A DNA stretch of 64,000 nucleotides from an uncultured Acidobacteriota bacterium (GCA_963734705.1 CAVTII010000015.1:400778-464777), one strand, 5' to 3'. Positions 1,577 to 48,051 are shown, counted from the first letter of the stretch. Made by a program: numbers and translations. Notes: generated by a model from the sequence alone, not told the origin.

Positions 1577-1601
1577 GCCGACCTGAAGGTCGGCCAGTAC
1601 A
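1577..1601 (+). repeat. REP hairpin family a (GCCGACCTGAAGGTCGGCC + AGTACA)
   Basis: Perfect 8-bp stem and the same unit as at 11803, 19096, 20021 and 21817. Confidence 0.8.
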
Positions 1602-1642
1602 TTTGGAGTTGAAGGAAAGCATTTTGGGGATTGCGGATGGCT

Positions 1643-1665
1643 GGACAGGCGAAAGCCTGTCCTAC
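1643..1665 (+). repeat. REP-like hairpin GGACAGGC-GAAA-GCCTGTCC + TAC
   Basis: Perfect 8-bp stem with a GAAA loop, followed by TAC. Confidence 0.6.
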
Positions 1666-1676
1666 GGGAGGGGAGC

Positions 1677-1719
1677 GGCCCGCCTCCCTCTACGAGGGCA
1701 AGCAGAAGGCGGGCCCTAC
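1677..1719 (+). repeat. REP family d variant (GGCCCGCC ... GGCGGGCC + CTAC, long loop)
   Basis: The outer stem GGCCCGCC/GGCGGGCC is identical to the copies at 19153 and 48026. CTAC tail. Confidence 0.6.
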
Positions 1720-1777
1720 GGAGACGGATTAGAACTTACGGCTTAGGGCTTACGGCATATGGCTTACGGCTGGGCGC

Positions 1778-2179
1778 TTAGTTTGTGGGGACTACTTTGG
1801 CTACGGGGGGCTTAAGCTCGACTTGGACTTGCTGGAAGTCGGAGGGGCCAATGTTTTGAGCTTCGTGGGTGGTGGCGTCGCTCCAGCCGGCGGTGCCCGC
1901 TTTGACGACGCGTTCCATGGATTTGCCGCTGGGCAGAGTGATCTTCAGTTTTCCATCGGTCAGGAAATAGGAAACATTTTCGGGGTGCGAATGCATGGGA
2001 GCGACTTGGCCAGGCTTGATGTCCACGGCGAGAACGCGGACGTGTTCGTTTTCGAAGATGACGCGATGGGAATCGCCGGCGACCTGGATGACGTCTTGAG
2101 GCGGCGCGGGGCGAGAGGTGGCGTAGAGGGCGGAAGAGGTTAGGAGAGTGGCGGCGATGAGGGTACGGGAGAGGTTCAT
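1778..2179 (-). CDS. secreted cupin domain protein
   Basis: Start chosen at MNLSRTLIAATLLTSSALYA (signal peptide), with GGAG upstream. Cupin motif PMHSHPENVSYFLTDGKLKITLPSG...EAQNIG. Confidence 0.75.
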   Translation of the reverse strand: MNLSRTLIAATLLTSSALYATSRPAPPQDVIQVAGDSHRVIFENEHVRVLAVDIKPGQVAPMHSHPENVSYFLTDGKLKITLPSGKSMERVVKAGTAGWSDATTHEAQNIGPSDFQQVQVELKPPVAKVVPTN

Positions 2180-2273
2180 GGTGGCTCCTGGCGGATCGGA
2201 TGTGGGAACGGCGGGATGATACAACAGAAAGTTTAAAGTCGACAGTCTGCAGTCGACAGTTTCCGGAATCCGA

Positions 2274-2299
2274 GTAGAACAGGCTTAAGCCTGTTCTAC
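2274..2299. repeat. perfect 26-bp palindrome GTAGAACAGGC-TTAA-GCCTGTTCTAC
   Basis: Read directly from the sequence, in the divergent region between the cupin gene and the kinase gene. It starts with GTAG and ends with CTAC. Confidence 0.7.
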
Positions 2300-5026: not shown

Positions 5027-5081
5027 GATCGTAAGAGCCCACCCTTAGAAGGCAAGGGTGGGGCGCCCTCAAGTTCATTTC
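5027..5081 (+). repeat. interspersed repeat GATCGTAAGAGCCCACCCTT-loop-AAGGGTGGGGCGCCCTCAAGTTCATTT
   Basis: A second copy lies at 25621..25685. Both are just downstream of a + strand gene stop. Confidence 0.75.
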
Positions 5082-5152: not shown

Positions 5153-5177
5153 GCACAGGCAGGAGTGCCTGTGCCAC
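5153..5177 (+). repeat. REP-like hairpin GCACAGGC-AGGAGT-GCCTGTGC + CAC (GTGG variant)
   Basis: Perfect 8-bp stem. A second copy lies inside leuS at 22178. Confidence 0.7.
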
Positions 5178-8895: not shown

Positions 8896-9672
8896 ATGCA
8901 GATGCCGGAGATGAATGGTTTTGAGCTTGTGGAGCGCATCCGGGAAACTCCCGGATGGAATGCGGCGACGATTGTGATGCTGAGTTCGGCGGGAGGCAGC
9001 GGCGACCGAGAGCGGAGCCGGGAGCTGGGAGTAGCCGCGTATTTGTTGAAGCCAATCCGTCAGGCGGAATTGCGCGACACGATTGTGCGGGTGATGGGGG
9101 CGCGTGAAGGGAAAGCGGCGGCCCAGGCGCAGGAACCGGTGGCAGAGCCAGCGTCGGAGAAGCGTGATGCGGCGGACATTCTGCGTGTGCTGGTGGCGGA
9201 AGATAACGCGGTGAACCAGAAATTGATTGTGCGGCTGCTGGAGAAGCGCGGGCATCGCGTGACGGTGGCGGGCAATGGGCGCGAGGCGGTGGACGCGGCG
9301 GCGCGGGCGAGCTTCGATCTGGTGCTGATGGATATGCAAATGCCGGAGATGGACGGGTTTGAGGCGACGGCGATGATCCGCGTGGGGGAGCGGCGCTCTG
9401 GGGCGCATCTGCCGATTGTGGCGTTGACGGCGCATGCGATGAAGGGGGATCGCGAGAAATGTCTGGCGGCGGGGATGGATGATTATTTGTCGAAGCCGAT
9501 TCAGCCGGGGGAGTTGGAGGAGGTTTTGGCGCGGTTTGCGGGGGGAAGGAAACAATTGTCAACAGTCGGCAGTTTACGGTCGGCGAAAAGAAGCTCGCAG
9601 ATAGCAGGAGGCACCCGCCTTCGCCGCAAAGAACGCGGCTACGGCGGGCAGGCAGAGGGAGCGGAGATTTGA
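8896..9672 (+). CDS. remainder of the same hybrid kinase (end of REC1 + complete REC2), as callable from the first ATG after the TAG
   Basis: It is in the same frame as 6556..8805, and codons 8806..8895 read PACAESGEQALAKLQAAAEAGEAFPIILTD. REC2: VLVAEDNAVNQKLIVRLL...LVLMDMQMPEMDG...LTAHAMKGD...DDYLSKP. Confidence 0.8.
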   Translation: MQMPEMNGFELVERIRETPGWNAATIVMLSSAGGSGDRERSRELGVAAYLLKPIRQAELRDTIVRVMGAREGKAAAQAQEPVAEPASEKRDAADILRVLVAEDNAVNQKLIVRLLEKRGHRVTVAGNGREAVDAAARASFDLVLMDMQMPEMDGFEATAMIRVGERRSGAHLPIVALTAHAMKGDREKCLAAGMDDYLSKPIQPGELEEVLARFAGGRKQLSTVGSLRSAKRSSQIAGGTRLRRKERGYGGQAEGAEI

Positions 9673-11666: not shown

Positions 11667-11698
11667 CCCAAGAGGGCACGATGTATCGTGCCCCTACA
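11667..11698 (+). repeat. REP family b (CCCCAAGAG-GGCACGATGTATCGTGCC-CCTACA)
   Basis: Near-identical copies lie at 15021, 23841 and 40031. Confidence 0.85.
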
Positions 11699-11802: not shown

Positions 11803-11828
11803 GGCCGATCTGAAGATCGGCCACTACA
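11803..11828 (+). repeat. REP family a (GGCCGATCTGAAGATCGGCC + ACTACA)
   Basis: 9-bp stem and CTACA tail, just beyond the 3' end of the RAYT gene. Confidence 0.85.
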
Positions 11829-11861: not shown

Positions 11862-11886
11862 TGTAGTGGCCAGTCTTTAGACTGGC
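11862..11886 (-). repeat. inverted-orientation REP (TGTAG + TGGCCAGTC-TTTA-GACTGGC)
   Basis: This is the only copy I found with GTAG 5' of the hairpin on the + strand. It overlaps the RAYT stop codon. CCACTACACAA (11821) and TTGTGTAGTGG (11858) form an inverted pair. Confidence 0.65.
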
Positions 11887-12398
11887 GGGGTCGACCTCCA
11901 AACTGGAAAAAATTGTTGGCCGGTTCTCGATTTCTTGATCCACTCGATTGTCTGAGATCCGGAAAACGGATAATCCTCCGGGCGCGTGCAGAGTTGCTTG
12001 CGAACCGGGTTGGCCCAGATGTAGCAAGCGACGCCCTCAATTTCATCTCCTTTCCGCAGGATGTGATCGTAAAAGCTCATTTCCCATAGACGGCGGTTGC
12101 TTTCTTTTTTGAAATCGTAGGCCGTGCGCAGTTTGAACACCCGCACGAGCTCGAAGAGATTCGAGGTGGGCTGGGTTCCATGGGCGAGGAAATGCAGGTG
12201 GTCTGGCATGGCGGAATAGGCATGGAGAAGGAAGAACCGCTTGGCGGCGCACTCACAGAGAGTTGAAAGGACGCGTCTTGCCGTCGGAGGATTTTCGAGA
12301 TAGGGCGAGCGTCGATCACAACAGATAGTTACGAAACGAGCCTTTGTGCCCACGTAGCTCAGAAGTGGGAGGCGGATCGCTTTTCGGTGCACCGGCAT
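11877..12398 (-). CDS. REP-associated tyrosine transposase (RAYT, IS200/IS605 Y1 transposase-like)
   Basis: 173 aa. HUH motif in AMPDHLHFLAHG and catalytic-Tyr region GVACYIWANPVRKQL. The gene is flanked by REP hairpins. Confidence 0.8.
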   Translation of the reverse strand: MPVHRKAIRLPLLSYVGTKARFVTICCDRRSPYLENPPTARRVLSTLCECAAKRFFLLHAYSAMPDHLHFLAHGTQPTSNLFELVRVFKLRTAYDFKKESNRRLWEMSFYDHILRKGDEIEGVACYIWANPVRKQLCTRPEDYPFSGSQTIEWIKKSRTGQQFFPVWRSTPPV

Positions 12399-12473
12399 GA
12401 GACGGACATATAACGTAAATTAAATAGTATTGATAGATATATGTTTGCGCGAGGCGTCGGAGGGCCGACCTTC

Positions 12474-13845
12474 AGAGTCCGTGTGAGAACTCGTCTTGAC
12501 TGGTAATTTATACTGCGGGGGAGGCGAGGGGCGATGAGCAAATTTTTGGAATACCACCCGGATCAGGCGTATCTGTTGCCGCCGAGTGTACGGGATGTGC
12601 TGGGCGAAGGGCATTTGTGTTTTTTTCTGAGGCGCGTGATGGCCAGGATGAACCTGGACCGTTTTCGCGAGGACTATGGGAGCGAGGGCGGGCCGGCCTA
12701 CGCGCCGGAGATGCTGGCGTCGGTGTGGCTGTATGCCTATGCGTTGGGGGTGACCAGTTCGCGGCGGCTGGAGCAGCGCATCCGCGAGGATTTGGCGTTT
12801 CGTTATTTAGCGGGTGGGGCGACGCCGGATCATTGGACGCTGAATGCATTTCGCCGCCGCCACGGGTGCGGGCTGAACGATTTATTCACGCAGGTAGTGG
12901 AGTTGGCGCGAGCCAGCGGGCTGGCGCGACTGGGGCATGTGGCCATCGATTCGACGCGCATTGCCGGAAACGCTTCGCGGAACCGAATCGACAGCGAGCA
13001 GGCGCTGCGTGACGAACGGGCACGCTTGCGGCGGGAGATTCGCCGCTGGCAGAAGCAGTGTGACGGGGAGGATCCGAACGAAGGAGCCGGGGTGCAGGTA
13101 AGTCGGGAAGCGCTTAGCGAGCTGGAGCGGCAGTTGGGAGAAATACCCGTGCGGCTGCAACGCCTGCAGAAAAGCGGGATGCAGAAGATTTCGCGGAGCG
13201 ATCCGGACAGCCGGTTTTTGCGGGAGCGCGGTGGATTCGTGCTGGGTTATACCGGGACGCTGGCGGTGAGCGGGGATCATTTGATCGTCGCGCAGCGGGT
13301 GAGTCAGGAGACCAACGACAATGAAGCGCTGCTGCCGATGATCGATCAGGTGCAACGACGATGCGGCGAATGTCCGCAGCGAGTGAGCGCCGACAGCGGA
13401 TTTTTCTCGCACGCCAACCTGGAAGCATTGGAAGAACGGAGCATCGACGGCTATGTGCCGGACAACAATATGGCGCGGGTGCTGAATCGCGGCGGTCGAC
13501 TGCATCATCCTGCAAGGCACCCGGCGCATCAACGCATGCGACGGAAGCTACGCGACCCGGCAGGCCGGGCAGTCTATGCACGACGCAAGGCAATCGTGGA
13601 ACCAGTGAACGGAGTGCTAAAAGAACAACGAGGAATGCGGCGCTTTCGGATGAAGGGCCTCGAAAAAGTCAAAGTGGAGTGGACCCTGGCGAGCATCGCC
13701 TACAACCTTACCCGCATCTGGCGCAGTAGCTAGCCATTGCGCGGCGCAAAGCAATCCTCACCCCGCGCCCTGCAAAGCAGAATCCGTCTTTTCCCAGCAC
13801 CACGCCCGCCACAAAAATAAAAAACAGAGTCCTCACACGGACTCT
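12474..13845 (+). mobile_element. IS1182/IS5-like insertion sequence (~1.37 kb) inserted in a REP hairpin loop
   Basis: Terminal inverted repeats AGAGTCCGTGTGAGAACTC (12474) and the reverse complement of GAGTCCTCACACGGACTCT (13827..13845). The flanks GGCCGACCTTC / AAAGATCGGCCACTACA are the two halves of a family-a REP. Confidence 0.75.
12534..13733 (+). CDS. DDE transposase, IS1182-family-like
   Basis: 399 aa. The N-terminus resembles the InsH-type transposase N-terminus (YHPDQAYLLPPSVRDVL...HLCFF...YAPEMLASVWLYAYALGVTSSRRLE). The DDE region has HVAIDSTRI...VSADSGF...IVEPVNGVLK. Confidence 0.75.
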   Translation: MSKFLEYHPDQAYLLPPSVRDVLGEGHLCFFLRRVMARMNLDRFREDYGSEGGPAYAPEMLASVWLYAYALGVTSSRRLEQRIREDLAFRYLAGGATPDHWTLNAFRRRHGCGLNDLFTQVVELARASGLARLGHVAIDSTRIAGNASRNRIDSEQALRDERARLRREIRRWQKQCDGEDPNEGAGVQVSREALSELERQLGEIPVRLQRLQKSGMQKISRSDPDSRFLRERGGFVLGYTGTLAVSGDHLIVAQRVSQETNDNEALLPMIDQVQRRCGECPQRVSADSGFFSHANLEALEERSIDGYVPDNNMARVLNRGGRLHHPARHPAHQRMRRKLRDPAGRAVYARRKAIVEPVNGVLKEQRGMRRFRMKGLEKVKVEWTLASIAYNLTRIWRSS

Positions 13846-13870
13846 AAAGATCGGCCACTACACAAGGCAC

Positions 13871-15020: not shown

Positions 15021-15053
15021 CCCCAAGAGGGCACGATGTATCGTGCCCCTACA
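15021..15053 (+). repeat. REP family b
   Basis: CCCCAAGAGGGCACGATGTATCGTGCCCCTACA, identical to the copy at 11667. Confidence 0.85.
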
Positions 15054-19095: not shown

Positions 19096-19121
19096 GGCCG
19101 ACTTAAAAGTCGGCCAGTACA
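19096..19121 (+). repeat. REP family a (GGCCGACTTAAAAGTCGGCC + AGTACA)
   Basis: Hairpin plus tail, read directly from the sequence. Confidence 0.8.
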
Positions 19122-19152: not shown

Positions 19153-19178
19153 GGCCCGCCACGGTCGGCGGGCCCTAC
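19153..19178 (+). repeat. REP family d (GGCCCGCC-ACGGTC-GGCGGGCC + CTAC)
   Basis: Identical to the copy at 48026..48051. Confidence 0.8.
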
Positions 19179-19210: not shown

Positions 19211-19234
19211 GCTGGCATGAAAGCCAGCGCTACA
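19211..19234 (+). repeat. REP family c (GCTGGC-ATGAAA-GCCAGC + GCTACA)
   Basis: Copies lie at 36903, 37805 and 38750. Confidence 0.8.
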
Positions 19235-19358: not shown

Positions 19359-20522
19359 ATGGCGGAATTTCCAATTATCGAGAACACGAAGTTTGAGCCG
19401 GAGGATGAGTATATTCCGGTGCCGCACGTGGAGCCTGGGCCTCCTGCGTGGATGGACGGGAGCCTGCGGATCGGCATACATACTTCGATTTCTGGGAGTT
19501 ATCTGAACGCGCTGGAATCGGCGAAGAAGCTGGGGGCGAACGCGCTGCAGATTTTTTCGGCGAGCCCGCGGATGTGGCAGACAGCGAACGTGCGGATTCC
19601 AGAGTCGGATGTGAAGGCGTTTCGGGCGCGGCGGGAAGAGTTGGGGCTGGGTCCGCTGGTGATTCACGCGAATTATCTGATCAATCTGGCGGCGGGACAG
19701 CCGATGCTGCGGACGCGGTCGATCCAGGCGTTTCATGAAGAGTTGGTGCGCGGGCGGGAACTGGGCGCGGACTTTGTGGTGGTGCATCCGGGGGCGCGCG
19801 GAGAGTCGACCATCGAGCAGGCGATTTCGACGATTGTGGACAGCGTGAAGCAGGCGGCGCGGCGCGTGCCGCTGGGGAAGATGCGGATTTTGATTGAGAA
19901 CACCGCGGGGATGGGGACGGCGGTGGGGTCGCGGCTGGAAGAGGTGGCGGCGATTTTGTACGAATTGAATCGCGGCCAAGGGACGGCGGAAGGGGCAGCA
20001 CAACAGAATTCTACGGAAAACCGACCTGAAGGTCGGCCACTACAATACGCGGCTTGTTTGGACACGGCGCATTTGTTTGCGGCGGGGTATGACATCAAGA
20101 GCGAGGCGGGGTTCGAGCAGACTCTGGAGACGATTGACCGGATATTGGGATTGGAGAATGTACCGGTGTTCCACGTGAACGATTCGAAGATTCCGCTGGG
20201 TGGGCGCGTGGATCGTCACGAGAATATTGGGGATGGAAAGATCGGCGCGGAGGCGTTTGCGCGGATCTTGCGGGCGAAGCGACTGGGGAGCGCGGGGCCG
20301 GAGGGATTGGCGGGTCGGGCGTTCTTGCTGGAGACGCCGATTGATGATCCGGGCGACGACCGGAAGAATGTGGCGAAATTGTGGGCACTGGCGGGCCTGG
20401 AAGGGCCGGAGGCGGAGAAGGGATATTCGATGATGACGCCGGGGCTGAAGAAGATGATTGCGAAGGGGAAGAAGGCGAGTGCGCGGCATTTGCCGGCGGC
20501 GAAGAGTAAAAAGAAGAAGTAA
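19359..20522 (+). CDS. nfo: deoxyribonuclease IV (endonuclease IV) with internal repeat-derived insertion and Lys-rich tail
   Basis: Motifs: IGIHTSISGS, LQIFSASPRMW, VIHANYLINL, VVVHPG, ILIENTAG, CLDTAHLFAAGYD, VFHVNDS, DRHENIGDG. The start is uncertain (19359 or 19452). Confidence 0.85.
   Translation: MAEFPIIENTKFEPEDEYIPVPHVEPGPPAWMDGSLRIGIHTSISGSYLNALESAKKLGANALQIFSASPRMWQTANVRIPESDVKAFRARREELGLGPLVIHANYLINLAAGQPMLRTRSIQAFHEELVRGRELGADFVVVHPGARGESTIEQAISTIVDSVKQAARRVPLGKMRILIENTAGMGTAVGSRLEEVAAILYELNRGQGTAEGAAQQNSTENRPEGRPLQYAACLDTAHLFAAGYDIKSEAGFEQTLETIDRILGLENVPVFHVNDSKIPLGGRVDRHENIGDGKIGAEAFARILRAKRLGSAGPEGLAGRAFLLETPIDDPGDDRKNVAKLWALAGLEGPEAEKGYSMMTPGLKKMIAKGKKASARHLPAAKSKKKK
20021..20044 (+). 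repeat. REP family a copy inside the nfo coding sequence
   Basis: CCGACCTGAAGGTCGGCCACTACA is read in frame as RPEGRPLQY. Confidence 0.8.
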
Positions 20523-20770: not shown

Positions 20771-23617
20771 GTGGGGGACTACAAGCCGCAGGAGATTGAG
20801 GCGAAGTGGCAGAAGCGGTGGGAAGAGAACCGCGTATTTGAGGCGGAAGCGGAAGTGGGGGAGCGGCAGCCTGCGGCTGGTGCCGGGGAGAGTGCGGACA
20901 AGATTTCGGAGAAGACTGCGGAGAAGAGGTCGGAGGAGCCCGGTTCGAAAGGCGAACCTGGGGCTCAGGCTGGCCGGCCCTTCGTAGCTCAGGGTAAACA
21001 AGATGCAGGCGCTACCAAGAGGAAATATTATGTGCTGGAGATGCTGCCGTATCCTTCGGGGACGCTGCATATGGGGCACATGCGCAACTACACAATTGGG
21101 GACGTGGTTGCGCGGGTAAAGAGAATGCGCGGGTACAACGTGCTGCACCCGATGGGGTGGGACGCGTTTGGCCTGCCGGCAGAAAATGCGGCGATCAAGA
21201 ACCACACGCATCCGCGTGTGTGGACCAATAAAAACATTGCGGAATTTCAGAGGGTGCTGCGGCGCTTCGGGTTCAGTTATGACTGGCGGCGGGAAATTTC
21301 CACGTGCGAGCCGGAATATTACCGGTGGAACCAATGGTTTTTCCTGCGCATGCTGGAGCGGGGGATTGCGTACAAGAAAAAGAGCCGGGTGAACTGGTGT
21401 CCGAAATGCTGCACGGTGCTGGCGAACGAGCAGGTGGTGAACGGGGGATATTGCTGGCGGCATGAAGATACGCGCGTGGAAGCGCGGGAGATTGAGCAGT
21501 GGTTTTTGAAGATCACGGCGTATGCGGAGCAGTTGCTGGAGGATCTGAAGCAGTTGGAGGGTGCGTGGCCGGATCGCGTGATCGCGATGCAGAGGAATTG
21601 GATTGGGAAGTCGGTGGGGGCGAAGGTTTGGTTTGCGATAGAAGGGGAAAAGAGTTTCATCACAGAGGACACGGAGGGCACAGAGAAGGAAGGGAAGAGG
21701 CGGATTGAGATTTTTACTACGCGGATTGACACGATTTATGGGGCTAGCGCGATTATTTTGGCGCCGAATCATCCGATGGTGGTGGGGTTGGTGGGGGCCG
21801 CAGTGGCGGATCCGGAGGCCGACCTGAAGGTCGGCCACTACACTTCGGAGGGGCGAGCTGCGAAGTTGGGGGCGATGAAGGCGTCTTCGGTTAAGGCGGA
21901 GGATATTGCTACTGCGGAGAAGGATGGGTTTTTTACGGGGCGGTATGCGATCAATCCGTTTAGTCGGGAGCGGGTGCCCATTTGGGTGGGAAATTTTGTG
22001 CTGATGGAGTATGGGACCGGGGCGATTATGGCGGTGCCGGCGCATGATGAGCGGGATAACGAGTTTGCGGTGAATTTTGGGTTGCGGATTCCGGTGGTGG
22101 TGGCAGAAGAGAAGAACAGAAAACCTAACGCAGAGACGCTGAGGGCACAGAGTTCCGCGGAGGAAGAAACCCCAAGAGCACAGGAAGGAGTGCCTGTGCC
22201 ACATTTGTTTACGGAGTATGGGTATAGCGTGAATTCGGGTAAGTATTCGGGGTTGCGGTCGGAAGAGGCGATTGAGCGGATGGCGGCGGATGGGGAGGCC
22301 GGCGGATTTGGGAAGAAGGAGACGATTTTTCGTCTGCGGGATTGGGGAATTTCGCGGCAAAGATATTGGGGCACGCCGATCCCGGTGATTTATTGCGACA
22401 AGGATGGGATGGTGCCGGTGCCGGATGACCAGTTGCCCGTGGTGCTGCCGGCGAATCCGAAGTTGACGGGGGAAGGGCAGTCTCCGCTGGCAACGGATCC
22501 GGACTTTGTGAATGTGAAATGCCCGAAGTGCGGCGGGCCGGCGCGGCGCGATGCGGATACGATGGACACGTTTGTGGATTCGTCGTGGTATTTCTACCGG
22601 TACACGGATGCGAAAAACGATCGGGCGCCGTTTGATCCGGCGAAAGCGGGATATTGGTTTCCGATTGACCAGTATATCGGCGGGATCACGCACGCGATTC
22701 TGCACCTGCTCTATTCGAGGTTCTGGTGCAAAGTGATGCGAGATCTGGGATTGGTGAAGCACGACGAGCCGATTGCGCGGCTGTTTACGCAGGGAATGGT
22801 GCAAAAGGGCGGCGTGGCGATGTCGAAATCGCGCGGGAATGTGGTGGGCGCGGAAGAGATGGCGGAGAAGTATGGGGCGGATACGGGGAGAATTTATACA
22901 CTGTTTGCGGCGCCGCCGGAGAAGGATCTGGAGTGGAGCGAAGAGAGTATTGAGGGTGCGTGGAGGTTTTTGAATCGGGTATATCGAGTTATCGACAAGC
23001 ATGCGGGCTCCGCGAGAGAAGTGGCGAGTGGCGAGTGGCGGGTGGCGAGTGAAGAGAAAAAGGATAACGCAGAGACGCTGAGCGCGCAGAGGTTCGCAGA
23101 GAAAGAGAAGTGGACGGAGAAGGAGAAGGGGTTGCTGCGGAAGGCGCACCAGACTTTGCGGAGGGTGACGCAGGATTTTGAGGGGCGGTGGCATTTTAAT
23201 TCGGCGATTGCGCAGATTATGGAATTGGTGAATGCGATTTATGCGGCGGAGCCGCTGGAAGAGGGCGTGCGGGCGGTGGTACGGAAGGAAGTGCTGGAGT
23301 TGGTGACGCTGATGCTGGCGCCGATGACGCCGCATCTGGCGGAAGAGTTGTGGGAGAAGCTGGGGCATGCGAATGGGTTGTGGACCGTGGGATGGCCGGA
23401 GTTTAATGCGGATTTGGCGAAACAGGATGAGGTGGAAATTCCGGTGCAGGTGAATGGAAAGGTGCGGGCGCGGCTGACGGTGCCGGCGGGGTCGGGGCAG
23501 GATGTGGTGATGGAGAAGGCGATGGCGGATGCGGTGGTGAAGGGGTATTTGGCGGGGAAGACGGTGCGGAAGGTGATTTTTGTGGGGGATAAGATGTTGA
23601 ATTTGGTGGTGGGGTAG
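20771..23617 (+). CDS. leuS: leucine--tRNA ligase
   Basis: Motifs: [47 protein letters not shown], the KMSKS motif as VAMSKSRGN, and the editing (CP1) domain. GTG start. It contains several repeat-derived in-frame segments. Confidence 0.95.
20968..21016 (+). repeat. composite repeat ...CCCTTCGTAGCTCAGGGTAAACAAGATGCAGGCGCTACC inside leuS
   Basis: The same unit occurs intergenically at 28383..28425, 29812..29855 and 41475..41521. Confidence 0.8.
21817..21842 (+). repeat. REP family a copy inside leuS
   Basis: GGCCGACCTGAAGGTCGGCCACTACA is read as ADLKVGHYT. Confidence 0.85.
22178..22202 (+). repeat. REP-like hairpin (GCACAGG-AAGGAGT-GCCTGTGC + CAC) inside leuS
   Basis: Same as 5153. It is preceded by ACCCCAAGA and a CACAGAG module, as in the intergenic composites. 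Confidence 0.8.
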
Positions 23618-23840: not shown

Positions 23841-23873
23841 CCCAAGAGGGGCACGATTTATCGTGCCCCTACA
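23841..23873 (+). repeat. REP family b
   Basis: CCCAAGAGGGGCACGATTTATCGTGCCCCTACA. Confidence 0.85.
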
Positions 23874-28208: not shown

Positions 28209-28468
28209 GTTTGGGAGCGGGATTGGTATTCGCGACGAATTTAGGTGTCAGCAGAAAGAGCGGGAAGGCTCGAGAATCCAAGCAATCGACATAAAGCAGC
28301 CCTTACGGAATCGAAGGTTGGGAGAAGAGGGCGACCGCCTGCGCCGCAAAAGGCGCGGCTACGGCGGGCTGGCCCTTGCTCGCCTGGCCTTCGTTGCTCA
28401 GGGTAAACAAGATACAGGCGCCACCATGGCGTGCAGCTACGCGGAGCACGGGACACGAGACATGTGGG

Positions 28469-29762: not shown

Positions 29763-29893
29763 CGCCCGCCTTCGCCGCGTGAGGCGCGCGGCTACGGCGG
29801 GCTGGCCCGGGGTGCCTGCCCTTCGATGCTCAGGGTAAACAAGATGCAGGCCCTACCGGTGGCGCGGCCCGCTTCAGAAAGCGGGCGCTACGG
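29763..29893 (+). repeat. tandem block of three repeat modules (CGCC-TTCGCCGC..GCGGCTACGGCGGG; CCCTTCGATGCTCAGGGTAAACAAGATGCAGGCCCTACC; GGCCCGC-TTCAGAAA-GCGGGCGCTAC)
   Basis: Each module recurs elsewhere (9612, 28331, 38824, 41428). Confidence 0.7.
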
Positions 29894-30959: not shown

Positions 30960-31274
30960 TTTTTTTGGGCGGGAAAGTGGGGGAGTTTTTTGTCGTAGCG
31001 CGTTGGCAGAGGGCGGTGGAGGAGAGATATTGCTGCGGTGATAGGTTGAGATCCTTCGGCCCGCTTAGGGCGCCCTTCGCGAAAGCGCTTGGGGCGAGCG
31101 GGCCTCAGGATGACAGGTTTTTTTTCGGTGCGGTGAGAGAAGAGGGATTTTTTTTGGGGCGGGTCGGAGTGGTGACGAGTTTTGGGAGCGGCGGTAGGTT
31201 TCGGGATTGAGGAATGCTTGAAATCGAAGAGGGATGGGCAAGCCCATCCCCTACAAGGAAAGGAGAGGAGGAAT

Positions 31275-32336: not shown

Positions 32337-32517
32337 GGAAATAAGGAAGTAAAGAAGTAATGAAATAAAGAAGTAATGGGATAAGAAAAAGGCGGGATTG
32401 GAGAAGACGGCCTGCTACAGTCGGCGGGCCCTACCGGATGATTGCGGAGACGCGGCAGCACCGGGATGGAATGGGAGTGGGATTTGAAATAGGATGGGGC
32501 GGGACAGGAGGCAGGAC

Positions 32518-36612: not shown

Positions 36613-36625
36613 CTGGGTGAGAATG

Positions 36626-36902: not shown

Positions 36903-36926
36903 GCTAGCATGAAAGCTAGCGCTACA
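36903..36926 (+). repeat. REP family c (GCTAGC-ATGAAA-GCTAGC + GCTACA)
   Basis: Hairpin plus CTACA tail. Confidence 0.8.
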
Positions 36927-37804: not shown

Positions 37805-37828
37805 GCTGACATGAAAGTCAGCGCTATA
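37805..37828 (+). repeat. REP family c (GCTGAC-ATGAAA-GTCAGC + GCTATA)
   Basis: Hairpin plus a degenerate tail. Confidence 0.7.
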
Positions 37829-37874: not shown

Positions 37875-37906
37875 AAAAAGGCGGCCCTTGATCTGGCCGC
37901 CTTTTT
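37875..37906 (-). terminator. rho-independent (bidirectional-looking) terminator
   Basis: AAAAAGGCGGCC-CTTGATCT-GGCCGCCTTTTT, 42 nt downstream of the minus-strand stop at 37948. Confidence 0.8.
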
Positions 37907-37947
37907 GGTTTGGGAGGAGTGGGATCGGTTGTTTGCGTTCGCTAGCG

Positions 37948-38376: not shown

Positions 38377-38550
38377 GGTGTCCCTCGATTCCGGTCCCGG
38401 TTAAGTGGTGCTGATCCTGGCCGGAGAGCTTGTCCGGTTGGTGCCGGTAAGCTGCTTACATTCGATTAAACACGGGGGTGGGGGAAGAGTTTTGATTTAT
38501 CGGTATGTGGTGTTTTATCAGTTGGTTATGGGTGGTTTGGAGAGAGAAGG

Positions 38551-38638
38551 TGGCGCGCCTACGGCGCTTTCGGCGTTTGGAGAGGGATTACCCCGGGCTT
38601 GCGCCCGCGGCTAGATTGTGGCGCGCCTCCGGCGCTGG
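38551..38638 (+). repeat. ~86-bp three-hairpin repeat (family as 28123)
   Basis: TGGCGCGCCTACGGCGCT...CCCCGGGCTTGCGCCCGCGGCTAGATTGTGGCGCGCCTCCGGCGCTGG. Confidence 0.7.
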
Positions 38639-38643
38639 GGAGG

Positions 38644-38684
38644 GGCGGAAAGGCGGAAAGACGGAAAGACGGAAAGACGGAAGA
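38644..38684 (+). repeat. tandem 8-mer (G/A)(G/A)CGGAAA x5
   Basis: GGCGGAAAGGCGGAAAGACGGAAAGACGGAAAGACGGAAG. Confidence 0.85.
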
Positions 38685-38717
38685 GCGGCCCGCTCGGGGC
38701 GAGCTGGAGCCGAGATT

Positions 38718-38773
38718 GCCTGCAAGATGCAAGCGCTACCGGCGGGGGAGCTGACATGAATGTTAGCGCTACA
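38718..38773 (+). repeat. adjacent REP family e (GCCTGCAAGATGCAAGC+GCTACC) and family c (GCTGACATGAATGTTAGC+GCTACA) copies
   Basis: Two hairpin-CTAC units 10 nt apart. Confidence 0.75.
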
Positions 38774-38865
38774 TTGAGTCGTGCGGGGCTGGATTGACGG
38801 ATAGGGGTAGATTGGGGAGGAGCGGCCCGCCTTCGTCGCGAAAGGCGCGGCTACGGCGGGGAGCG

Positions 38866-39870
38866 TTAGAGCTCGACGATGAGTTTGCCTATGTTTTCGC
38901 CGCGGAAGAGCATGTTGATGGCTTCGGGGGCTTTTTCGAGGCCGTGAACGAGGGTTTGGCGGTCTTTGAGTTTGCCGGTCATTTTCCACATGCCGAGTTT
39001 CTGGCCGACTTCCATAAAGCGGGAAATGTAATCGAGAATGAGGAAGCCTTCGACGCGAAGGCGCTTGATGATGATCTGGCCAAAGCTGGCCAGACCGGGA
39101 TCGTGTTTGGTGTAGCCAGAAATGAGGCCGCAGAGAACGACGCGGCCGTGGAGATTCATGCGGTCGAGGACGGCTTGCATGATTTCGCCGCCGACGTTTT
39201 CGAAGTCGATGTCCACGCCTTTCGGGGTTGCGGCGGCGAGTTGGGCTTTCCAGTCGGGATGCTTGTAGTTGATGGCGGCGTCGAAGCCGAGATCGTCTTT
39301 AATCCATTTACATTTTTCATCGGTGCCGGCAATGCCGACGACGTGGCAGCCGTGAATTTTGCCGAGCTGGCCGACGATGCTGCCGGTGGCTCCGGCGGCG
39401 GCGGAGACGACGAGCGTTTCGCCGGACTTGGGCTGGCCGACTTCGATGAGGCCGAAGTAGGCAGTGAGGCCGTTGACGCCGAGAAGGTTGAGGAAATTGG
39501 TGTCCGATAGAAATGGAATCGAGGGGAGTTTTTGGAAGCTTCGTTTCTCGGCGCCGGTGATGAGAACGTATTCCTGAAGGCCGGTGAGGCCGGAAACTTT
39601 ATCTCCCTTTTTGTAGTCGGGATGGCGGGATTCGACGATTTCCGCGAGGCCGAAGGAACGCATGACTTCGCCGATCTGGACGGGAGGCATGTACTGGGGG
39701 AAATCGGTCATCCAAACGCGCATGGTGGGATCGATGGAGAGATATTTTACTTTGGCGAGGGCTTGGCCTTCGGCGACGGTGGGGATGGGGGATTCGGTGA
39801 GTTGGAGGACGTCAGGAGTGATGAGGCCGGTTGGGCGGGTGGAGAGTTTCCATTGACGGTTGGTGGGCAT
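38866..39870 (-). CDS. NADP-dependent oxidoreductase, medium-chain dehydrogenase/reductase family (YncB/CurA-like)
   Basis: 334 aa. Cofactor motif VSAAAGATGSIVGQLGK. Overall pattern of alkenal/one oxidoreductases. Confidence 0.8.
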   Translation of the reverse strand: MPTNRQWKLSTRPTGLITPDVLQLTESPIPTVAEGQALAKVKYLSIDPTMRVWMTDFPQYMPPVQIGEVMRSFGLAEIVESRHPDYKKGDKVSGLTGLQEYVLITGAEKRSFQKLPSIPFLSDTNFLNLLGVNGLTAYFGLIEVGQPKSGETLVVSAAAGATGSIVGQLGKIHGCHVVGIAGTDEKCKWIKDDLGFDAAINYKHPDWKAQLAAATPKGVDIDFENVGGEIMQAVLDRMNLHGRVVLCGLISGYTKHDPGLASFGQIIIKRLRVEGFLILDYISRFMEVGQKLGMWKMTGKLKDRQTLVHGLEKAPEAINMLFRGENIGKLIVEL

Positions 39871-39980: not shown

Positions 39981-40003
39981 GCCTGCAAGATGCAGGCGCT
40001 ACC
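39981..40003 (+). repeat. REP family e (GCCTGCA-AGA-TGCAGGC + GCTACC)
   Basis: Perfect 7-bp stem. Confidence 0.8.
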
Positions 40004-40030: not shown

Positions 40031-40057
40031 GAGGGCACGATGTATCGTGCCACTACA
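40031..40057 (+). repeat. REP family b
   Basis: GAGGGCACGATGTATCGTGCCACTACA. Confidence 0.8.
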
Positions 40058-41427: not shown

Positions 41428-41522
41428 GCGGGCCGCATCCCTCCTTCGGCGGGCAGGCGGAATGCGGGGCCCTGACTTGCCTGCCCTTCGACGCTCAGGG
41501 TACACAAGATGCAGGCGTTACG
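41428..41522 (+). repeat. composite repeat block (GGCGGGCCGCATCC...GGAATGCGGGGCCC; CCCTTCGACGCTCAGGGTACACAAGATGCAGGCGTTAC)
   Basis: Same modules as 28331..28425 and 29763..29855. Confidence 0.7.
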
Positions 41523-45460: not shown

Positions 45461-45567
45461 GGACGGCGAGCCGAGCCAACTGGGGAAGATACGAGTTCAG
45501 TGTACACCACGGGGAAGAGTTGTCAGTAATCGGAAGGAGGGATCGGGGCCTTGGGATGGGGGCCTGG

Positions 45568-45628
45568 GCTGGCCAATCTGGAGATTCAACCCGCAGACTT
45601 CGCGGGTTGGTGAAGAGGTGGCGCTCCC
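45568..45628 (+). repeat. ~60-bp interspersed repeat GCTGGCCAATCTGGAGATTCAACCCGC-loop-GCGGGTTGGTGAAGAGGTGGCGCTCCC
   Basis: Copies lie at 36771/36812, 55975 and 58063. Confidence 0.8.
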
Positions 45629-45792
45629 ATGAGGAACGGCCGCCTCCCGCCTTCGCGAAAACGGCTGCGGCGGGCAAGCGGAAGGCAGGCCCTGCGGGGG
45701 GCTGAGGGGTTGGTTGAAAATTGGGTAAAGGGAGGTAACGGAGGGGTTTCGGAGGCATCGGAGAGTTAATGATGTGGATGAGGTGGGCGGTA

Positions 45793-46710
45793 ATGAAAAA
45801 TTGGGGATGGAAGGCAAGGTGGGTGGGCCCGGCGGCGGGAGTGTTGGCGGGATTGCTGTGGTTGGGAGGAGCGTTGTGTGTTGAGGCGCAGACTCGAGGG
45901 GATGAGGGGGGAGGCGGAGGTTCGGAGGAGATACCGCTGGAGAAGTGCGACGTGCTGCCGGTGGTGCAGGTGACGGTGGATGGGAGTGAAATGCGGTTTC
46001 TGGTGGATACGGGAGCAACGACGATTCTGAATTTGGGTTCGTTTACTTCCGGGCGGTCGAAGGAGATTCAGGTGAGTTCTTGGAGCGGGACAGCGGCGAC
46101 GAGCGCGCGGGAAGTACGGTTGCCGGAACTTGCGTTGGGAAGCCACCGGTTGAAGGATTTGAAATTGCCGGCGATTGATTTAAGTCCGATTGGGAAAGCG
46201 TGCGGCGGAAAAATTGACGGGATTCTTGGCGTGGATTTGCTGGACAGAATGGGAGTGACGATCGATTTGAAGAGGCAGGTGGCTTCGATAGGGACGGAGC
46301 CGGCGGGTGCTCGGGCGATGTATGGGCTGATGGAGTCGCAGATGCATCAGTGTACCGATGCGTTTGAACAAGGGAAGGCGAAGGAGCTGGAAGAATGCTT
46401 TGATCCGGAGATTGTGCTTTATACGCCGGATGGGGAGTATCGCGGGCGCAAGCAGGCGGTGGAGTATTTGCAGGCGCGGTATATGAAGTATGCGCCCAAT
46501 CTTTCGTACTCGATGGTATTGAAGGATGTGCAGAGTTTTGGGGATGCGCTTTGGTATTCGTACGATTATGAGATTACGGCGCCGAAGGAGCATGTGGTGG
46601 GGCACGGGATGTCTATGTGCAGGCGGACGGCGGGGAAGTGGTATGTTTTGAATTTGCATAATTCGTTGGTGGGGACAGAAGCGGCGGGGAAGAGTTCACC
46701 ACAGAGGTAG
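45793..46710 (+). CDS. secreted retropepsin-like aspartyl protease domain fused to SnoaL/DUF4440-like (NTF2 fold) domain
   Basis: Signal WVGPAAGVLAGLLWLGGALCVEAQ. Asp-protease motif FLVDTGATTILN ... GILGVDLL. The C-terminal half has FDPEIVLYTPDGEYRGRKQAVEYL...GKWYVLNLH. Confidence 0.65.
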   Translation: MKNWGWKARWVGPAAGVLAGLLWLGGALCVEAQTRGDEGGGGGSEEIPLEKCDVLPVVQVTVDGSEMRFLVDTGATTILNLGSFTSGRSKEIQVSSWSGTAATSAREVRLPELALGSHRLKDLKLPAIDLSPIGKACGGKIDGILGVDLLDRMGVTIDLKRQVASIGTEPAGARAMYGLMESQMHQCTDAFEQGKAKELEECFDPEIVLYTPDGEYRGRKQAVEYLQARYMKYAPNLSYSMVLKDVQSFGDALWYSYDYEITAPKEHVVGHGMSMCRRTAGKWYVLNLHNSLVGTEAAGKSSPQR

Positions 46711-46815
46711 CGGAGGTCCGCAAAGTTAACCGAGATTTGGGAGTTGGCGCTAGATGGTTTTGTTGGGTTGAATTTGGACGGTTGAGGATCGAGAAAGCAA
46801 ATAGGAGAGACTGAG

Positions 46816-47832
46816 ATGGCGAAGAATTTGGTGGCGCAGGTTGGTAAGGCGGGCGGGGAGTTTGAGTTGGTGGAGCGGGATATGCCGGTGCCGGGGGCGG
46901 GAGAGATCCGGATCAAGGTGCTGGCTTGCGGAGTGTGTCACAGCGATCAGGCAACGAAGGAAGGGATGTTTCCATTTATCACATTCCCGCGCGTGCCGGG
47001 GCATGAGGTGGCGGGGATTGTGGACGAAGTGGGCGCGGGCGTGACGGAATGGAAGAAGGGGGATCGGGTAGGGGCAGGCTGGCACGGCGGACATTGTTTT
47101 GTGTGCGAGTCTTGCCGGCGCGGAGAGTTTGTGACCTGCAAGAACGAGCAGATCAATGGTGTGACGCGGGACGGCGGATACGGGCAATACATGATCGCGC
47201 GGCATGAGGCGGTGGCGCGGCTGCCGGAGTCCATGAATGCGGCGGAGGCGGGGCCGCTGCTGTGCGCGGGGATCACCACGTTTAATGCGCTGCGACACAG
47301 CGGCGCGGGGCCCGGAGATCTGGTGGCAGTGCAGGGAATCGGTGGGCTGGGGCATCTAGGAATTCAGTTCGCGGCGAAGTTCGGGTATCGCGTGGTGGGG
47401 ATCGGGCGCGGGCCAGAGAATGGAGCGCTGGCGAAGAAACTGGGCGCTTCGGTTTACATCGACAGCAAGAATTCGAATGCGGCGGAGGAGTTGCAGAAGT
47501 TGGGAGGGGCGCAGGTGATCCTGGCAACGGCGCCGAGCGCGAAGGCGATGTCTGAACTTGTGGGCGGATTGAAGGCGGGCGGCGAGCTGCTGACCATAGG
47601 TGTCTCCGGGGAGCCGCTGGAGGTTTCGCTGGCGCCGCTGATTATGGGGAAGAGGCGGATTCAAGGATGGCCCTCGGGAACGGCGATGGATTCGGAAGAT
47701 ACGCTGCAGTTTTCGGAGATGACCGGAGTGCGGGCGATGATTGAGAAATATCCGCTGGCGAAGGTGAAAGAGGCGTACGAGCGGATGATGTCGGGGAAGG
47801 CTGAGTTTCGGGTGGTGTTGACGATGGAGTGA
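46816..47832 (+). CDS. zinc-dependent alcohol dehydrogenase (AdhP-like)
   Basis: Motifs: GVCHSDQ, PGHEVAGIVDEVG, CxxCxxC...C structural zinc site (CFVCESCRRGEFVTC), GIGGLGHLGIQFA. Confidence 0.9.
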   Translation: MAKNLVAQVGKAGGEFELVERDMPVPGAGEIRIKVLACGVCHSDQATKEGMFPFITFPRVPGHEVAGIVDEVGAGVTEWKKGDRVGAGWHGGHCFVCESCRRGEFVTCKNEQINGVTRDGGYGQYMIARHEAVARLPESMNAAEAGPLLCAGITTFNALRHSGAGPGDLVAVQGIGGLGHLGIQFAAKFGYRVVGIGRGPENGALAKKLGASVYIDSKNSNAAEELQKLGGAQVILATAPSAKAMSELVGGLKAGGELLTIGVSGEPLEVSLAPLIMGKRRIQGWPSGTAMDSEDTLQFSEMTGVRAMIEKYPLAKVKEAYERMMSGKAEFRVVLTME

Positions 47833-47993
47833 TCGAGAGGAGATAGCCGACAGTCCACAGTCGACAGCTGACAGTTTTCGGATTTCGGAGAAGAGTTTGG
47901 GCGGAGGGGCGATGGCGCTTCTCCGCTTTTTGTTTGTGGAGGACGCACGATGAATAAGAGGTGGGCTCGCCTGGGAAGGCTTTGCTTTGGCTT

Positions 47994-48051
47994 GCCTGCA
48001 AGTTGCAGGTGCTACCAATGCGGGCGGCCCGCCACGGTCGGCGGGCCCTAC
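47994..48051 (+). repeat. adjacent REP family e (GCCTGCAAGTTGCAGGT+GCTACC) and family d (GGCCCGCCACGGTCGGCGGGCC+CTAC) copies
   Basis: The family d copy is identical to 19153..19178. Confidence 0.8.

What the first reader, a model, noticed from the sequence alone, without database searches (positions are those of the whole stretch)
1577..48051. Sequence-unrelated hairpin families all carry the same CTAC(A) tail, which is the GTAG rule of RAYT substrates
The intergenic DNA holds short, near-perfect hairpins. Their stems differ completely between families, yet on the + strand each is followed by CTAC(A), which is GTAG at the hairpin foot on the other strand. (a) GGCCGACCTGAAGGTCGGCC-ACTACA at 1577, 11803, 19096, 20021 and 21817, plus a split copy at 12464/13846. 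(b) GGGCACGATGTATCGTGCCC-CTACA at 11667, 15021, 23841 and 40031. (c) GCTGGCATGAAAGCCAGC-GCTACA at 19211, 36903, 37805 and 38750. (d) GGCCCGCC-ACGGTC-GGCGGGCC-CTAC, identical at 19153 and 48026, with a long-loop copy at 1677. (e) GCCTGCAAGATGCAGGC-GCTACC at 38718, 39981 and 47994, and embedded at 20968, 28383, 29812 and 41475. (f) GGACAGGCGAAAGCCTGTCC-TAC at 1643. There is also a GTGG variant at 5153 and 22178. A conserved GT[AG]G next to an imperfect palindrome is how REPs are defined in E. coli and Pseudomonas, and it is what the REP-associated tyrosine transposase recognises. One RAYT gene lies in this window. Many stem families sharing one tetranucleotide is unusual.
Basis: partly seen in the sequence, partly recalled or inferred. 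Interest (0 to 1): 0.78.

Follow-up and report, generated by a model that had tools for sequence, protein, structure and literature searches.

The report
GTAG-tagged REP hairpins in an acidobacterium
These short hairpins are ordinary REP elements, the small DNA repeats handled by RAYT transposases, found here in a soil acidobacterium; their shared CTAC/GTAG tag is a known hallmark, and the only unusual point is that every copy faces the same way along the chromosome.

Summary
Of 50 perfect hairpins in the window, 12 carry CTAC at the 3' foot on the + strand, against 0.4 expected. This holds across at least 7 unrelated stems.

The reading as REP/RAYT is right. ORF 11877-12398(-) passes NCBI's equivalog model for REP-associated tyrosine transposase. 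It keeps the HUH and Tyr motifs of E. coli TnpAREP. It sits in a canonical REPtron flanked by family a hairpins, and two other genomes share that layout.

"Many stems, one tetranucleotide" is not unusual. It is the published GTAG REP superfamily, in which several families coexist in one genome, each with its own RAYT. I found support for that here:
- Family b is flanked by a second RAYT class in 5 of 5 loci examined.
- Two family-a-class RAYT paralogues in one assembly flank different stems.

Corrections to the finding:
- Several copies are in-frame inside LeuRS and endonuclease IV, not intergenic.
- Some tails read GTAC, CTAT or CAC rather than CTAC.
- Other hairpin repeat families in the window lack the tag.

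The less ordinary feature is polarity. All 30 copies point the same way, with CTAC on the G-rich strand, whatever the direction of neighbouring genes. Metagenomic relatives show the same bias (85 against 10). The elements are single units or head-to-tail mixed arrays, not inverted REPIN pairs.

The parts
11877..12398 (-). RAYT (TnpAREP) gene, 173 aa, with HUH motif DHLH and Tyr motif YIWANP
   Evidence: Pfam Y1_Tnp. NCBIfam NF047646 91.1 bits, cutoff 80. Aligns to 4ER8 TnpAREP. It is the only RAYT-like ORF in the window by HMM scan.
11863..11886 (-). Inverted REP a' (GTAG-T-GGCCAGTC TTTA GACTGGC) overlapping the RAYT stop codon. It is the only copy in the opposite orientation.
   Evidence: Conserved in L120, L121 and L246.
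11803..11828 (+). REP family a, 3' of the RAYT, forming a pair with a'
12463..12472 (+). Left half of the REP a copy 5' of the RAYT, split by an IS
12473..13845 (+). IS1182-family insertion sequence (transposase 12534-13733) inserted in the loop of REP a
   Evidence: NCBIfam NF033551 329.6 bits. Terminal inverted repeats.
13846..13862 (+). Right half of the split REP a, with ACTACA tail
   Evidence: (D14)
1576..1601 (+). REP a (tail AGTACA)
19096..19121 (+). REP a (tail AGTACA), first unit of the array a-d-c
20019..20044 (+). REP a inside endonuclease IV (nfo), in frame. It is part of a 22-aa insertion that is absent from the L121 orthologue.
21817..21842 (+). REP a inside LeuRS, in frame (EADLKVGHY). 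The L121 orthologue shares it.
11674..11698 (+). REP b
15029..15053 (+). REP b
23849..23873 (+). REP b between LeuRS and GuaA. An orthologous copy is present in L121.
40033..40057 (+). REP b, lying between two - strand genes
19211..19234 (+). REP c
36903..36926 (+). REP c (compensatory stem change GCTAGC/GCTAGC)
37805..37828 (+). REP c (tail CTATA)
38750..38773 (+). REP c
19153..19178 (+). REP d
32409..32434 (+). REP d, degenerate copy
   Evidence: (D12)
48026..48051 (+). REP d
1677..1719 (+). REP d with a long loop
29867..29891 (+). d-like REP (GCCCGCTT CAGA AAGCGGGC GCTAC)
38718..38740 (+). REP e
39981..40003 (+). REP e
47994..48016 (+). REP e
20974..21015 (+). Long-loop e element inside the N-terminal extension of LeuRS, in frame
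   Evidence: (D4)
28383..28424 (+). Long-loop e element
29815..29856 (+). Long-loop e element
41480..41521 (+). Long-loop e element, between two - strand genes
1643..1665 (+). REP f (tail TAC; the GTAG head overlaps the stem by one base)
2274..2299 (.). f-like hairpin in which GTAG and CTAC pair with each other at the base of the stem
5153..5177 (+). REP g (GTGG head)
22178..22202 (+). REP g inside LeuRS, in frame ([11 protein letters not shown]). The L121 orthologue shares it.
31231..31255 (+). REP h (single copy in the window)
9614..9648 (+). Nested element D6 (CCCGCC-TTC-GCCGCG..CGCGGC-TAC-GGCGGG)
   Evidence: (D6). Its fold is not distinguishable from shuffles.
28334..28368 (+). Nested element D6
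38826..38860 (+). Nested element D6

Best explanation
The hairpins are GTAG-tagged REP elements in a Terriglobia-type acidobacterial chromosome. REPs are the miniature, non-autonomous partners of REP-associated tyrosine transposases (RAYT/TnpAREP).

On the C-rich (-) strand each element reads 5'-(T)GTAG-(0-1 nt)-perfect 7-9 bp stem, tetraloop-like loop, stem-3'. By analogy with the characterised E. coli, Stenotrophomonas and Marinomonas enzymes, a RAYT binds that folded single strand. It uses GTAG as a protein contact and as a guide for choosing a nearby CT (or CA) cleavage site. This step is inferred, not shown here.

The tag is shared because it belongs to the conserved catalytic and guide mechanism. 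The stems differ because each family has co-evolved with its own RAYT paralogue:
- Family a is the cognate REP of the RAYT in this window (shown by the REPtron layout).
- Family b belongs to a second RAYT class encoded elsewhere (shown in other genomes, inferred for this one).
- The enzymes for families c-h are unknown.

Copies persist for a long time: orthologous copies are shared with a genome whose LeuRS is 80% identical. Some are more recent, such as the nfo insertion that is absent from that same genome.

All copies share one polarity relative to the replication-type GC skew. This points to a strand-specific step of insertion or retention acting on single-stranded DNA at the fork (inferred).
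For: - Tag enrichment: 12 of 50 hairpins against 0.42 expected, in 8 stem families.
- Hairpin stability with the GTAG head unpaired.
- Stems stay paired through compensatory changes: in 80 of 81 tailed family a copies in other genomes the variable stem position keeps a Watson-Crick pair, and the one exception keeps a G-T wobble. Within the window, families a and c show the same.
- RAYT identity.
- REPtron layout GTAG-REPa / RAYT / REPa'-CTAC / GTAG-REPa, conserved in the window, L120 and L121. L121 is syntenic with the window.
- The family a hairpin plus NCTAC recurs in about 80 places in GTDB genomes. A RAYT lies next to it in L089, L044 and L099.
- The family b hairpin has 126 metagenome hits, 92 of them with CTAC.
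- A distinct RAYT class is flanked by b hairpins in L215, L243, L244, L245 and L247.
- Two a-class paralogues in assembly ERZ25039458 flank the stems GGCCGACC and GGCGGGTC.
- Literature: Di Nocera 2013 (PMC3733652) and Corneloup 2021 (PMC8266576).
Against: - No enzyme activity was tested.
- RAYTs cognate to families c-h were not found.
- The rest of the source genome could not be read, so its number of RAYT paralogues is unknown.
- The elements are single units or head-to-tail arrays, not the inverted doublets (REPINs, BIMEs) that are thought to be the mobile unit in Pseudomonas and E. coli.
- By the E. coli rule the substrate strand (GTAG strand) here lies on the presumed leading-strand template. 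That is not what the IS608 model of insertion into the lagging-strand template predicts in its simplest form.
- The eL and D6 elements do not fold better than shuffled sequence and may be a different kind of repeat.
Confidence: 0.85

Rival explanations
1. A single promiscuous RAYT, the one in this window, recognises only the GTAG head plus any short perfect hairpin. On this view it mobilises all the stem families.
For: Only one RAYT-like ORF lies in the 64 kb window. E. coli TnpAREP shows cross-activity on REPs that share few features beyond GTAG (PMC8266576 section 16).
Against: Family b is flanked by its own, different RAYT class in 5 of 5 loci. Paralogous a-class RAYTs in one assembly flank different stems. 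The RAYT in this window is flanked only by family a stems in three genomes. Published work finds repeat-specific REPtrons and co-evolution (PMC3733652, PMC8266576).
Confidence: 0.1
2. The hairpins are host regulatory structures, such as terminators or mRNA-stabilising stem-loops. On this view they were never mobile, and the CTAC tail is a functional RNA or protein-binding motif unrelated to RAYT.
For: Many copies lie just 3' or 5' of genes. REPs are known to act on mRNA stability in E. coli (background in PMC3733652).
Against: - Orientation is the same whether neighbouring genes are on + or -.
- No T-tract follows the hairpins.
- Copies sit in frame inside LeuRS and nfo.
- The nfo copy is present in one genome and absent in its relative.
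- The same hairpin plus tag occurs next to RAYT genes in distant phyla.
Confidence: 0.04
3. CTAC is not part of the element. It is the chromosomal target site next to which unrelated hairpin elements insert, as TTAC is for IS608.
For: IS200/IS605 elements insert 3' of a fixed tetranucleotide. In arrays, an element often follows the CTAC of the previous one after 10-15 nt.
Against: The empty nfo site in L121 has no CTAC, so there the tag arrived with the insertion. The tag sits at a fixed 0-1 nt from the stem in every family. The REPs that flank RAYT genes carry it too.
Confidence: 0.04

Closest known systems
GTAG-tagged REP superfamily (Nunvar 2010; Di Nocera, De Gregorio & Rocco 2013, PMC3733652), including Stenotrophomonas SMAG and Pseudomonas REPs
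   Same: - Stem-loops of 20-40 nt with an unpaired GT[AG]G at one foot.
- Several stem families in one genome.
- Repeat-specific RAYT loci (REPtrons).
- Occasional in-frame copies inside genes, including DNA-repair genes.
   Different: - That survey did not report GTAG REPs in Acidobacteria, only TIR-flanked 'TIRYT' genes.
[quoted passage not shown] Here every copy is single or in head-to-tail arrays of mixed families.
- Here all copies share one polarity.
Group 3 RAYT / perfect-palindrome REPtrons (S. maltophilia, Marinomonas; Corneloup et al. 2021, PMC8266576; Quentin 2018 subclass 2.5, PMC6006769)
   Same: - Perfect palindromes without a bulge.
- Motifs DH[LF]H and YI.ANP in the enzyme.
- GTAG head, with GTAC and GTGG variants that were tolerated experimentally in Marinomonas.
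- A single-copy, syntenic, housekeeping-like RAYT.
   Different: - Different phylum.
- The W motif reads WE rather than WQ.
- Sequence similarity to the solved E. coli enzyme is low (E 1e-4).
- No biochemistry exists for this lineage.
REPINs (Bertels & Rainey 2011, PMC3116915) and E. coli BIMEs
   Same: The same class of enzyme and the same tagged hairpin module. The pair a / a' next to the RAYT looks like a REPIN.
   Different: REPINs and BIMEs are inverted doublets and so have no net polarity. In this window, 30 of 30 dispersed copies are direct and co-oriented.
Rickettsia palindromic elements (RPEs)
   Same: Small palindromic repeats inserted in frame into essential genes, adding surface peptides. 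Here the genes are LeuRS and endonuclease IV.
   Different: RPEs are longer (about 100-150 nt). Di Nocera 2013 places them in the CGTC-tagged group, which has no known transposase.
IS200/IS605 (IS608, ISDra2)
   Same: An HUH Y1 enzyme acts on hairpins in single-stranded DNA, and a tetranucleotide 5' of the hairpin foot serves as a guide. In genomes these elements also show a replication-linked orientation bias.
   Different: The window's protein scores below the IS200 model cutoff (28.7 bits against 55). There is no tnpB. The gene is single-copy and syntenic. The dispersed units are 25-nt hairpins, not whole insertion sequences.

Membership tests
GTAG-type REP | Short (20-40 nt) palindrome able to form a stem-loop in single-stranded DNA | tested here: met
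   Perfect 7-10 bp stems. DNA folding z -2.4 to -5.1 for families a-h. Not met for the long-loop eL and D6 forms.
GTAG-type REP | Conserved unpaired GT[AG]G tetranucleotide at one foot of the palindrome | tested here: met
   12 of 50 hairpins against 0.42 expected; 8 stem families. Variant heads GTAC, GTGG and GTAA occur in a minority.
GTAG-type REP | Many dispersed copies in the genome | tested here: inconclusive
   There are 30 copies in the first 48 kb of the window. Families a, b, d and e are also in related genomes and metagenomes. The rest of the source genome could not be read.
GTAG-type REP | Predominantly extragenic | tested here: met
   Of the copies placed on the gene map, most are intergenic and four are clearly in frame in LeuRS and nfo. 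Intragenic copies are also known for this family (PMC3733652).
GTAG-type REP | A cognate RAYT gene flanked by the same REP (REPtron) | tested here: met
   Family a: window, L120, L121. Family b: L215, L243, L244, L245, L247 in other genomes. Families c-h: not found.
REPIN / BIME organisation | Units occur mainly as inverted doublets | tested here: not met
   30 of 30 copies are in one orientation. The only inverted partner is a' at the RAYT stop codon.
RAYT / TnpAREP | HUH motif and catalytic Tyr in the YI..NP helix | tested here: met
   DHLH and YIWANP align to H59-M-H61 and Y115 of 4ER8.
RAYT / TnpAREP | Scores above the curated cutoff of NCBIfam equivalog NF047646 | tested here: met
   91.1 bits against a cutoff of 80. 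The IS200 model NF033573 scores 28.7 bits against a cutoff of 55. The b-class enzyme scores 58.6 bits, below the cutoff.
RAYT / TnpAREP | Single-copy, vertically inherited, syntenic gene (domesticated transposase) | tested here: met
   L121 has the same neighbourhood (DAHP synthase, RAYT, radical-SAM; LeuRS, GuaA, nfo nearby) at 55% RAYT identity. There is one copy in the window.
RAYT / TnpAREP | Strand-specific, GTAG-dependent binding and cleavage of single-stranded REP DNA | not testable with these tools
   Needs purified protein and oligonucleotides.
IS200/IS605 insertion sequence | Multi-copy autonomous element with a TnpA above the model cutoff, often with tnpB | tested here: not met
   Below the IS200 cutoff. 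No tnpB neighbour. The locus is syntenic and single.

The most novel reading that the evidence does not exclude
In this high-GC-skew acidobacterial lineage, REPs spread or survive as single hairpins with a strict polarity relative to replication. The RAYT-substrate strand (GTAG-hairpin) always lies on the C-rich strand, whatever the direction of transcription.

Supporting counts:
- 30 of 30 copies in the window.
- 85 against 10 for family b in metagenomes.
- 38 against 8 for about 30 other stems.

I did not find this polarity described in the REP/RAYT papers I read. If it is real, it would be direct genomic evidence that REP dissemination, or RAYT-driven removal, is coupled to the replication fork and does not need inverted REPIN doublets.
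Probability: 0.4. Interest if true: 0.6.

Novelty: new member of a known kind. Interest (0 to 1): 0.35.

Why it matters
**Already known.** The core finding only restates textbook REP biology: a GTAG head, a RAYT, and several stem families in one genome.

**What it adds:**
- It extends GTAG REPs, with at least two RAYT classes and dozens of stems, to Terriglobia-type Acidobacteriota. An earlier survey found only TIR-flanked tyrosine transposases in that phylum.
- It offers a natural system in which the elements are single and fully polar along a chromosome with an extreme replication skew. How REPs spread is still unsettled. A lineage where orientation tracks the replication strand, and where filled and empty sites can be compared (as for nfo), would make that question testable by comparative genomics and with simple oligonucleotide assays.
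- The in-frame copies in LeuRS and endonuclease IV are a warning for annotation and for alignments of these proteins.

Tried and rejected
- **Codon-usage gene caller.** A caller trained on the window called shadow ORFs on the + strand over real - strand genes, because of the strand skew. I replaced it with Pfam checks of - strand ORFs.
- **Source contig.** A search for the source contig through the exact RAYT protein returned only a 982-bp metagenome fragment.
- **nfo DNA alignment.** The first alignment used the wrong L121 coordinates and was redone. The insertion boundaries remain fuzzy, so no target site could be defined.
- **Rfam.** The gathering-threshold scan of the whole window found no family for the hairpins. 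Its only hit was Acido-Lenti-1, an unrelated repeat. A laxer scan of 28000-39000 added only a second, sub-threshold Acido-Lenti-1 copy.
- **Terminator reading.** Rejected, because the hairpins have no T-tract and their orientation is independent of the neighbouring genes.
- **"CTAC as target site".** Rejected on the single empty site available.
- **Conserved AAGA 5' flank as the CT cleavage site.** On the GTAG strand it reads TCTT. It is compatible with that role, but the + strand intergenic DNA is purine-rich anyway, so I do not count it as evidence.
- **RAYTs for families c-h.** None were present in the loci fetched.
- **Literature on REP polarity.** Searches for a described REP polarity relative to replication found nothing. 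The exception is a note on symmetric tandem GI-GIII arrays in P. fluorescens SBW25.

Full report
**1. What is in the sequence.**
The window is 58% G+C with an extreme strand asymmetry: the + strand is 36% G and 22% C, and GC skew is about +0.25 over most of its length.

A scan for perfect hairpins (stem >=7 bp, loop 3-8) gives 50. In 12 of them CTAC starts within two bases of the 3' end of the stem on the + strand, against 0.42 expected from the frequency of CTAC in the window (P about 1e-14). CTAC is the commonest word at that position. Collapsed to stem families, the count is 8 of 43 (P about 3e-9). A looser scan (158 hairpins) gives 18 with CTAC at the 3' foot against 3 with GTAG at the 5' foot.

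Searching with ten family consensus sequences and allowing mismatches gives 30 copies, all on the + strand.

As single-stranded DNA, families a-h fold into the expected hairpin with GTAG unpaired at the 5' foot of the - strand (z -2.4 to -5.1). The long-loop forms eL and D6 are no better than shuffles.

Stems stay paired through compensatory changes. Within the window, family a shows GACC/GGTC, GATC/GATC and GACT/AGTC, and family c shows GCTGGC, GCTAGC and GCTGAC. Among family a copies from other genomes that carry the tail, the variable stem position keeps a Watson-Crick pair in 80 of 81. The one exception keeps a G-T wobble.

**2. Corrections to the observation.**
- Two family a copies end in AGTACA, one family c copy ends in CTATA, and family g ends in CAC. 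The heads are therefore GTAG, GTAC, GTGG and, rarely, others.
- Not all copies are intergenic. Family a at 21817, g at 22178 and eL at 20974 lie in frame inside leucyl-tRNA synthetase. At those points the protein has insertions relative to T. thermophilus LeuRS 1H3N.
- The a and g insertions are shared with the orthologue in locus L121, which is 80% identical.
- Family a at 20019 lies in frame in endonuclease IV. It is part of a 22-residue insertion that is missing from the L121 orthologue (85% identical) and from the solved homologue shown aligned (24UU).
- Other repeated hairpin families in the window lack the tag. So "all families" really means "one large class of them".

**3. The enzyme and its own repeat.**
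ORF 11877-12398(-) is a 173-residue Y1 HUH protein. It matches Pfam Y1_Tnp. It scores 91.1 bits on NCBIfam equivalog NF047646, "REP-associated tyrosine transposase", against a cutoff of 80. It is well below the IS200 model cutoff. It aligns to E. coli TnpAREP (4ER8) with the HUH histidines (DHLH) and the catalytic tyrosine (YIWANP) in place. It is the only such ORF in the window.

On its coding strand the locus reads as follows:
- GTAG-REPa, here split by an IS1182-family insertion sequence sitting in the hairpin loop;
- then the RAYT;
- then an inverted variant a' (GGCCAGTC TAAA GACTGGCC-ACTACA) overlapping the stop codon;
- then GTAG-REPa again.

The same layout is found around homologues that are 66% and 55% identical (L120, L121). 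L121 is syntenic with the window: GuaA, LeuRS, nfo, DAHP synthase, RAYT, radical-SAM. So this is a vertically inherited, single-locus gene, as described for domesticated RAYTs.

**4. Outside the window.**
*Family a.* The 20-nt family a hairpin, searched without its tail, occurs in more than 118 places in species-representative genomes. These are mostly Acidobacteriota (including Vicinamibacterales) but also Eremiobacterota, Chloroflexota and others. About 80 of the hits are followed by NCTAC. The untailed hits are mainly coding matches in actinomycetes. RAYT-like genes lie directly next to it in L089, L044 and L099.

*Family b.* The family b hairpin has 126 hits in metagenome contigs, 92 of them followed by CTAC. 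One of these loci (L215) carries a different, frameshifted RAYT-like gene flanked on both sides by b hairpins. Its family has 2546 members at E<=1e-20, and JGI names many of them RayT. In four more loci the gene is again flanked by b hairpins (L243, L244, L245, L247).

*Paralogues.* In assembly ERZ25039458 two a-class paralogues sit in REPtrons of the same design but with different stems (GGCCGACC with a GTAC head; GGCGGGTC with a GTAG head).

*Other stems.* In 361 kb of high-skew metagenome loci, about 30 further stems carry the tag.

**5. Interpretation.**
This is the GTAG REP superfamily. Di Nocera et al. 2013 (PMC3733652) describe GTAG-tagged REPs in many species, sorted into 24 families. 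Several families can share one organism, each with repeat-specific REPtrons, and they report intragenic copies, many in replication and repair genes.

Corneloup et al. 2021 (PMC8266576) show that RAYTs bind only the GTAG strand. They also show that GTAG acts in recognition and, for one enzyme, guides the choice of CT/CA cleavage sites. [quoted passage not shown]

The shared tetranucleotide with unrelated stems is therefore expected. It is not a sign of one enzyme with many substrates.

The motifs DHLH and YI.ANP, together with the perfect palindromes, place this system nearest Quentin's subclass 2.5, which is Bertels' group 3.

What is shown here:
- the tag;
- the hairpins;
- the RAYT identity;
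- the REPtron layouts;
- the separate RAYT for family b;
- the filled and empty nfo site.

What is inferred:
- that these enzymes cleave these hairpins;
- that the source genome itself carries further paralogues.

**6. What is less ordinary.**
*Polarity.* All 30 copies point the same way, with CTAC on the G-rich strand. This includes seven copies lying between - strand genes.

*Nature of the skew.* The skew is not a coding-strand effect. Third-position GC skew is +0.27 to +0.77 in + strand genes. It is negative in 14 of 15 - strand genes read on their own strand, mostly -0.4 to -0.7. So it reflects the replication strand.

*Relatives show the same polarity:*
- In seven high-skew genome loci, 7 hairpins carry the CTAC tag and 2 family a copies carry GTAC, all on the G-rich strand, with none opposite.
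- In L120 and L121 the counts are 4 against 1 and 6 against 1.
- For family b in metagenomes the count is 85 against 10.
- For other stems it is 38 against 8.

*Arrangement.* The elements are single or in head-to-tail arrays of mixed families (a-f-d at 1.6 kb, a-d-c at 19.1 kb, e-c-D6 at 38.7 kb, e-b at 40.0 kb, e-d at 48.0 kb). Published surveys call head-to-tail dimers rare and treat inverted doublets as the mobile unit.

*Literature.* I found no description of such polarity in the REP/RAYT papers read.

*Mechanism.* By the E. coli rule the substrate strand would lie on the presumed leading-strand template. That fits purging of copies in the exposed orientation at least as well as it fits directed insertion. 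This remains open.

**7. Verdict.**
The REP/RAYT reading is supported. The claim of unusualness is not. This is a new member of a known kind (an acidobacterial GTAG REP system with several RAYT classes). It has one feature worth following up: strict replication-strand polarity of single REPs.

Noticed in passing
window 1-64000: The strand asymmetry is extreme (+ strand G 36%, C 22%). Third-codon-position GC skew has opposite sign in + and - strand genes, so this is a replication-type mutational skew. Both the skew and the REP density fall after about 48 kb, in a region that also holds an IS5-family transposase (54658-55452).
   Followed up: partly
window 20771-23617 (LeuRS): Besides the three REP copies, LeuRS has further in-frame inserts relative to T. 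thermophilus LeuRS that look repeat-derived: [14 protein letters not shown] (aa 296-310), NAETLRAQ (about aa 452-459) and [15 protein letters not shown] (about aa 766-780). The L121 orthologue has different inserts at the same points.
   Followed up: partly
window 19245-20522 (nfo): Endonuclease IV carries a 66-nt in-frame insertion that includes a family a REP. The insertion is absent from the 85%-identical orthologue in L121, so this is a filled/empty site pair in a DNA-repair gene.
   Followed up: yes
window 12473-13845: An IS1182-family insertion sequence (transposase 12534-13733, terminal inverted repeats AGAGTCCGTGTGA / TCACACGGACTCT) is inserted in the loop of the REP that flanks the RAYT. 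A 982-bp metagenome contig (L001) has the same junction.
   Followed up: partly
window 38591-38636, 28164-28207, also 36599-36708, 28123-28151, 38550-38578: The Rfam family Acido-Lenti-1 RNA (RF01687) matches once above threshold and once below it. Related copies are dispersed in the same intergenic regions as the REPs, so here it behaves as a repeat family rather than as a single sRNA gene.
   Followed up: partly
window 5038-5062 and 25632-25666: The hairpin family CCCACCCTT...AAGGGTGGG followed by GCRCCCTCAA lies just downstream of two + strand genes. A similar copy is in L049. It has no CTAC tag.
   Followed up: no
window 36758-36877, 45555-45633, 55962-56040, 58050-58081: A repeat family of about 65 nt (GCTGGCCAATCTGGAGATTCAACCCGC...GCGGGTTG) contains two small hairpins and has no CTAC tag.
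   Followed up: no
window 16175-16226, 32321-32388, 33547-33587: Purine-rich tandem repeats of period 8, (AGTAAGGA)n, begin right at or after the stop codons of three + strand genes.
   Followed up: no
window 2274-2299: In the hairpin GTAGAACAGGC TTAA GCCTGTTCTAC, the GTAG head and the CTAC tail pair with each other at the base of the stem. L244 has a family b copy carrying both GTAG and CTAC.
   Followed up: no
L244:5870-6700: The b-class RAYT in this locus is flanked by two b hairpins that are direct repeats of each other but inverted relative to those in L215 and L245. REPtrons of this class therefore seem to have direct rather than inverted flanks, with the gene in either orientation.
   Followed up: no
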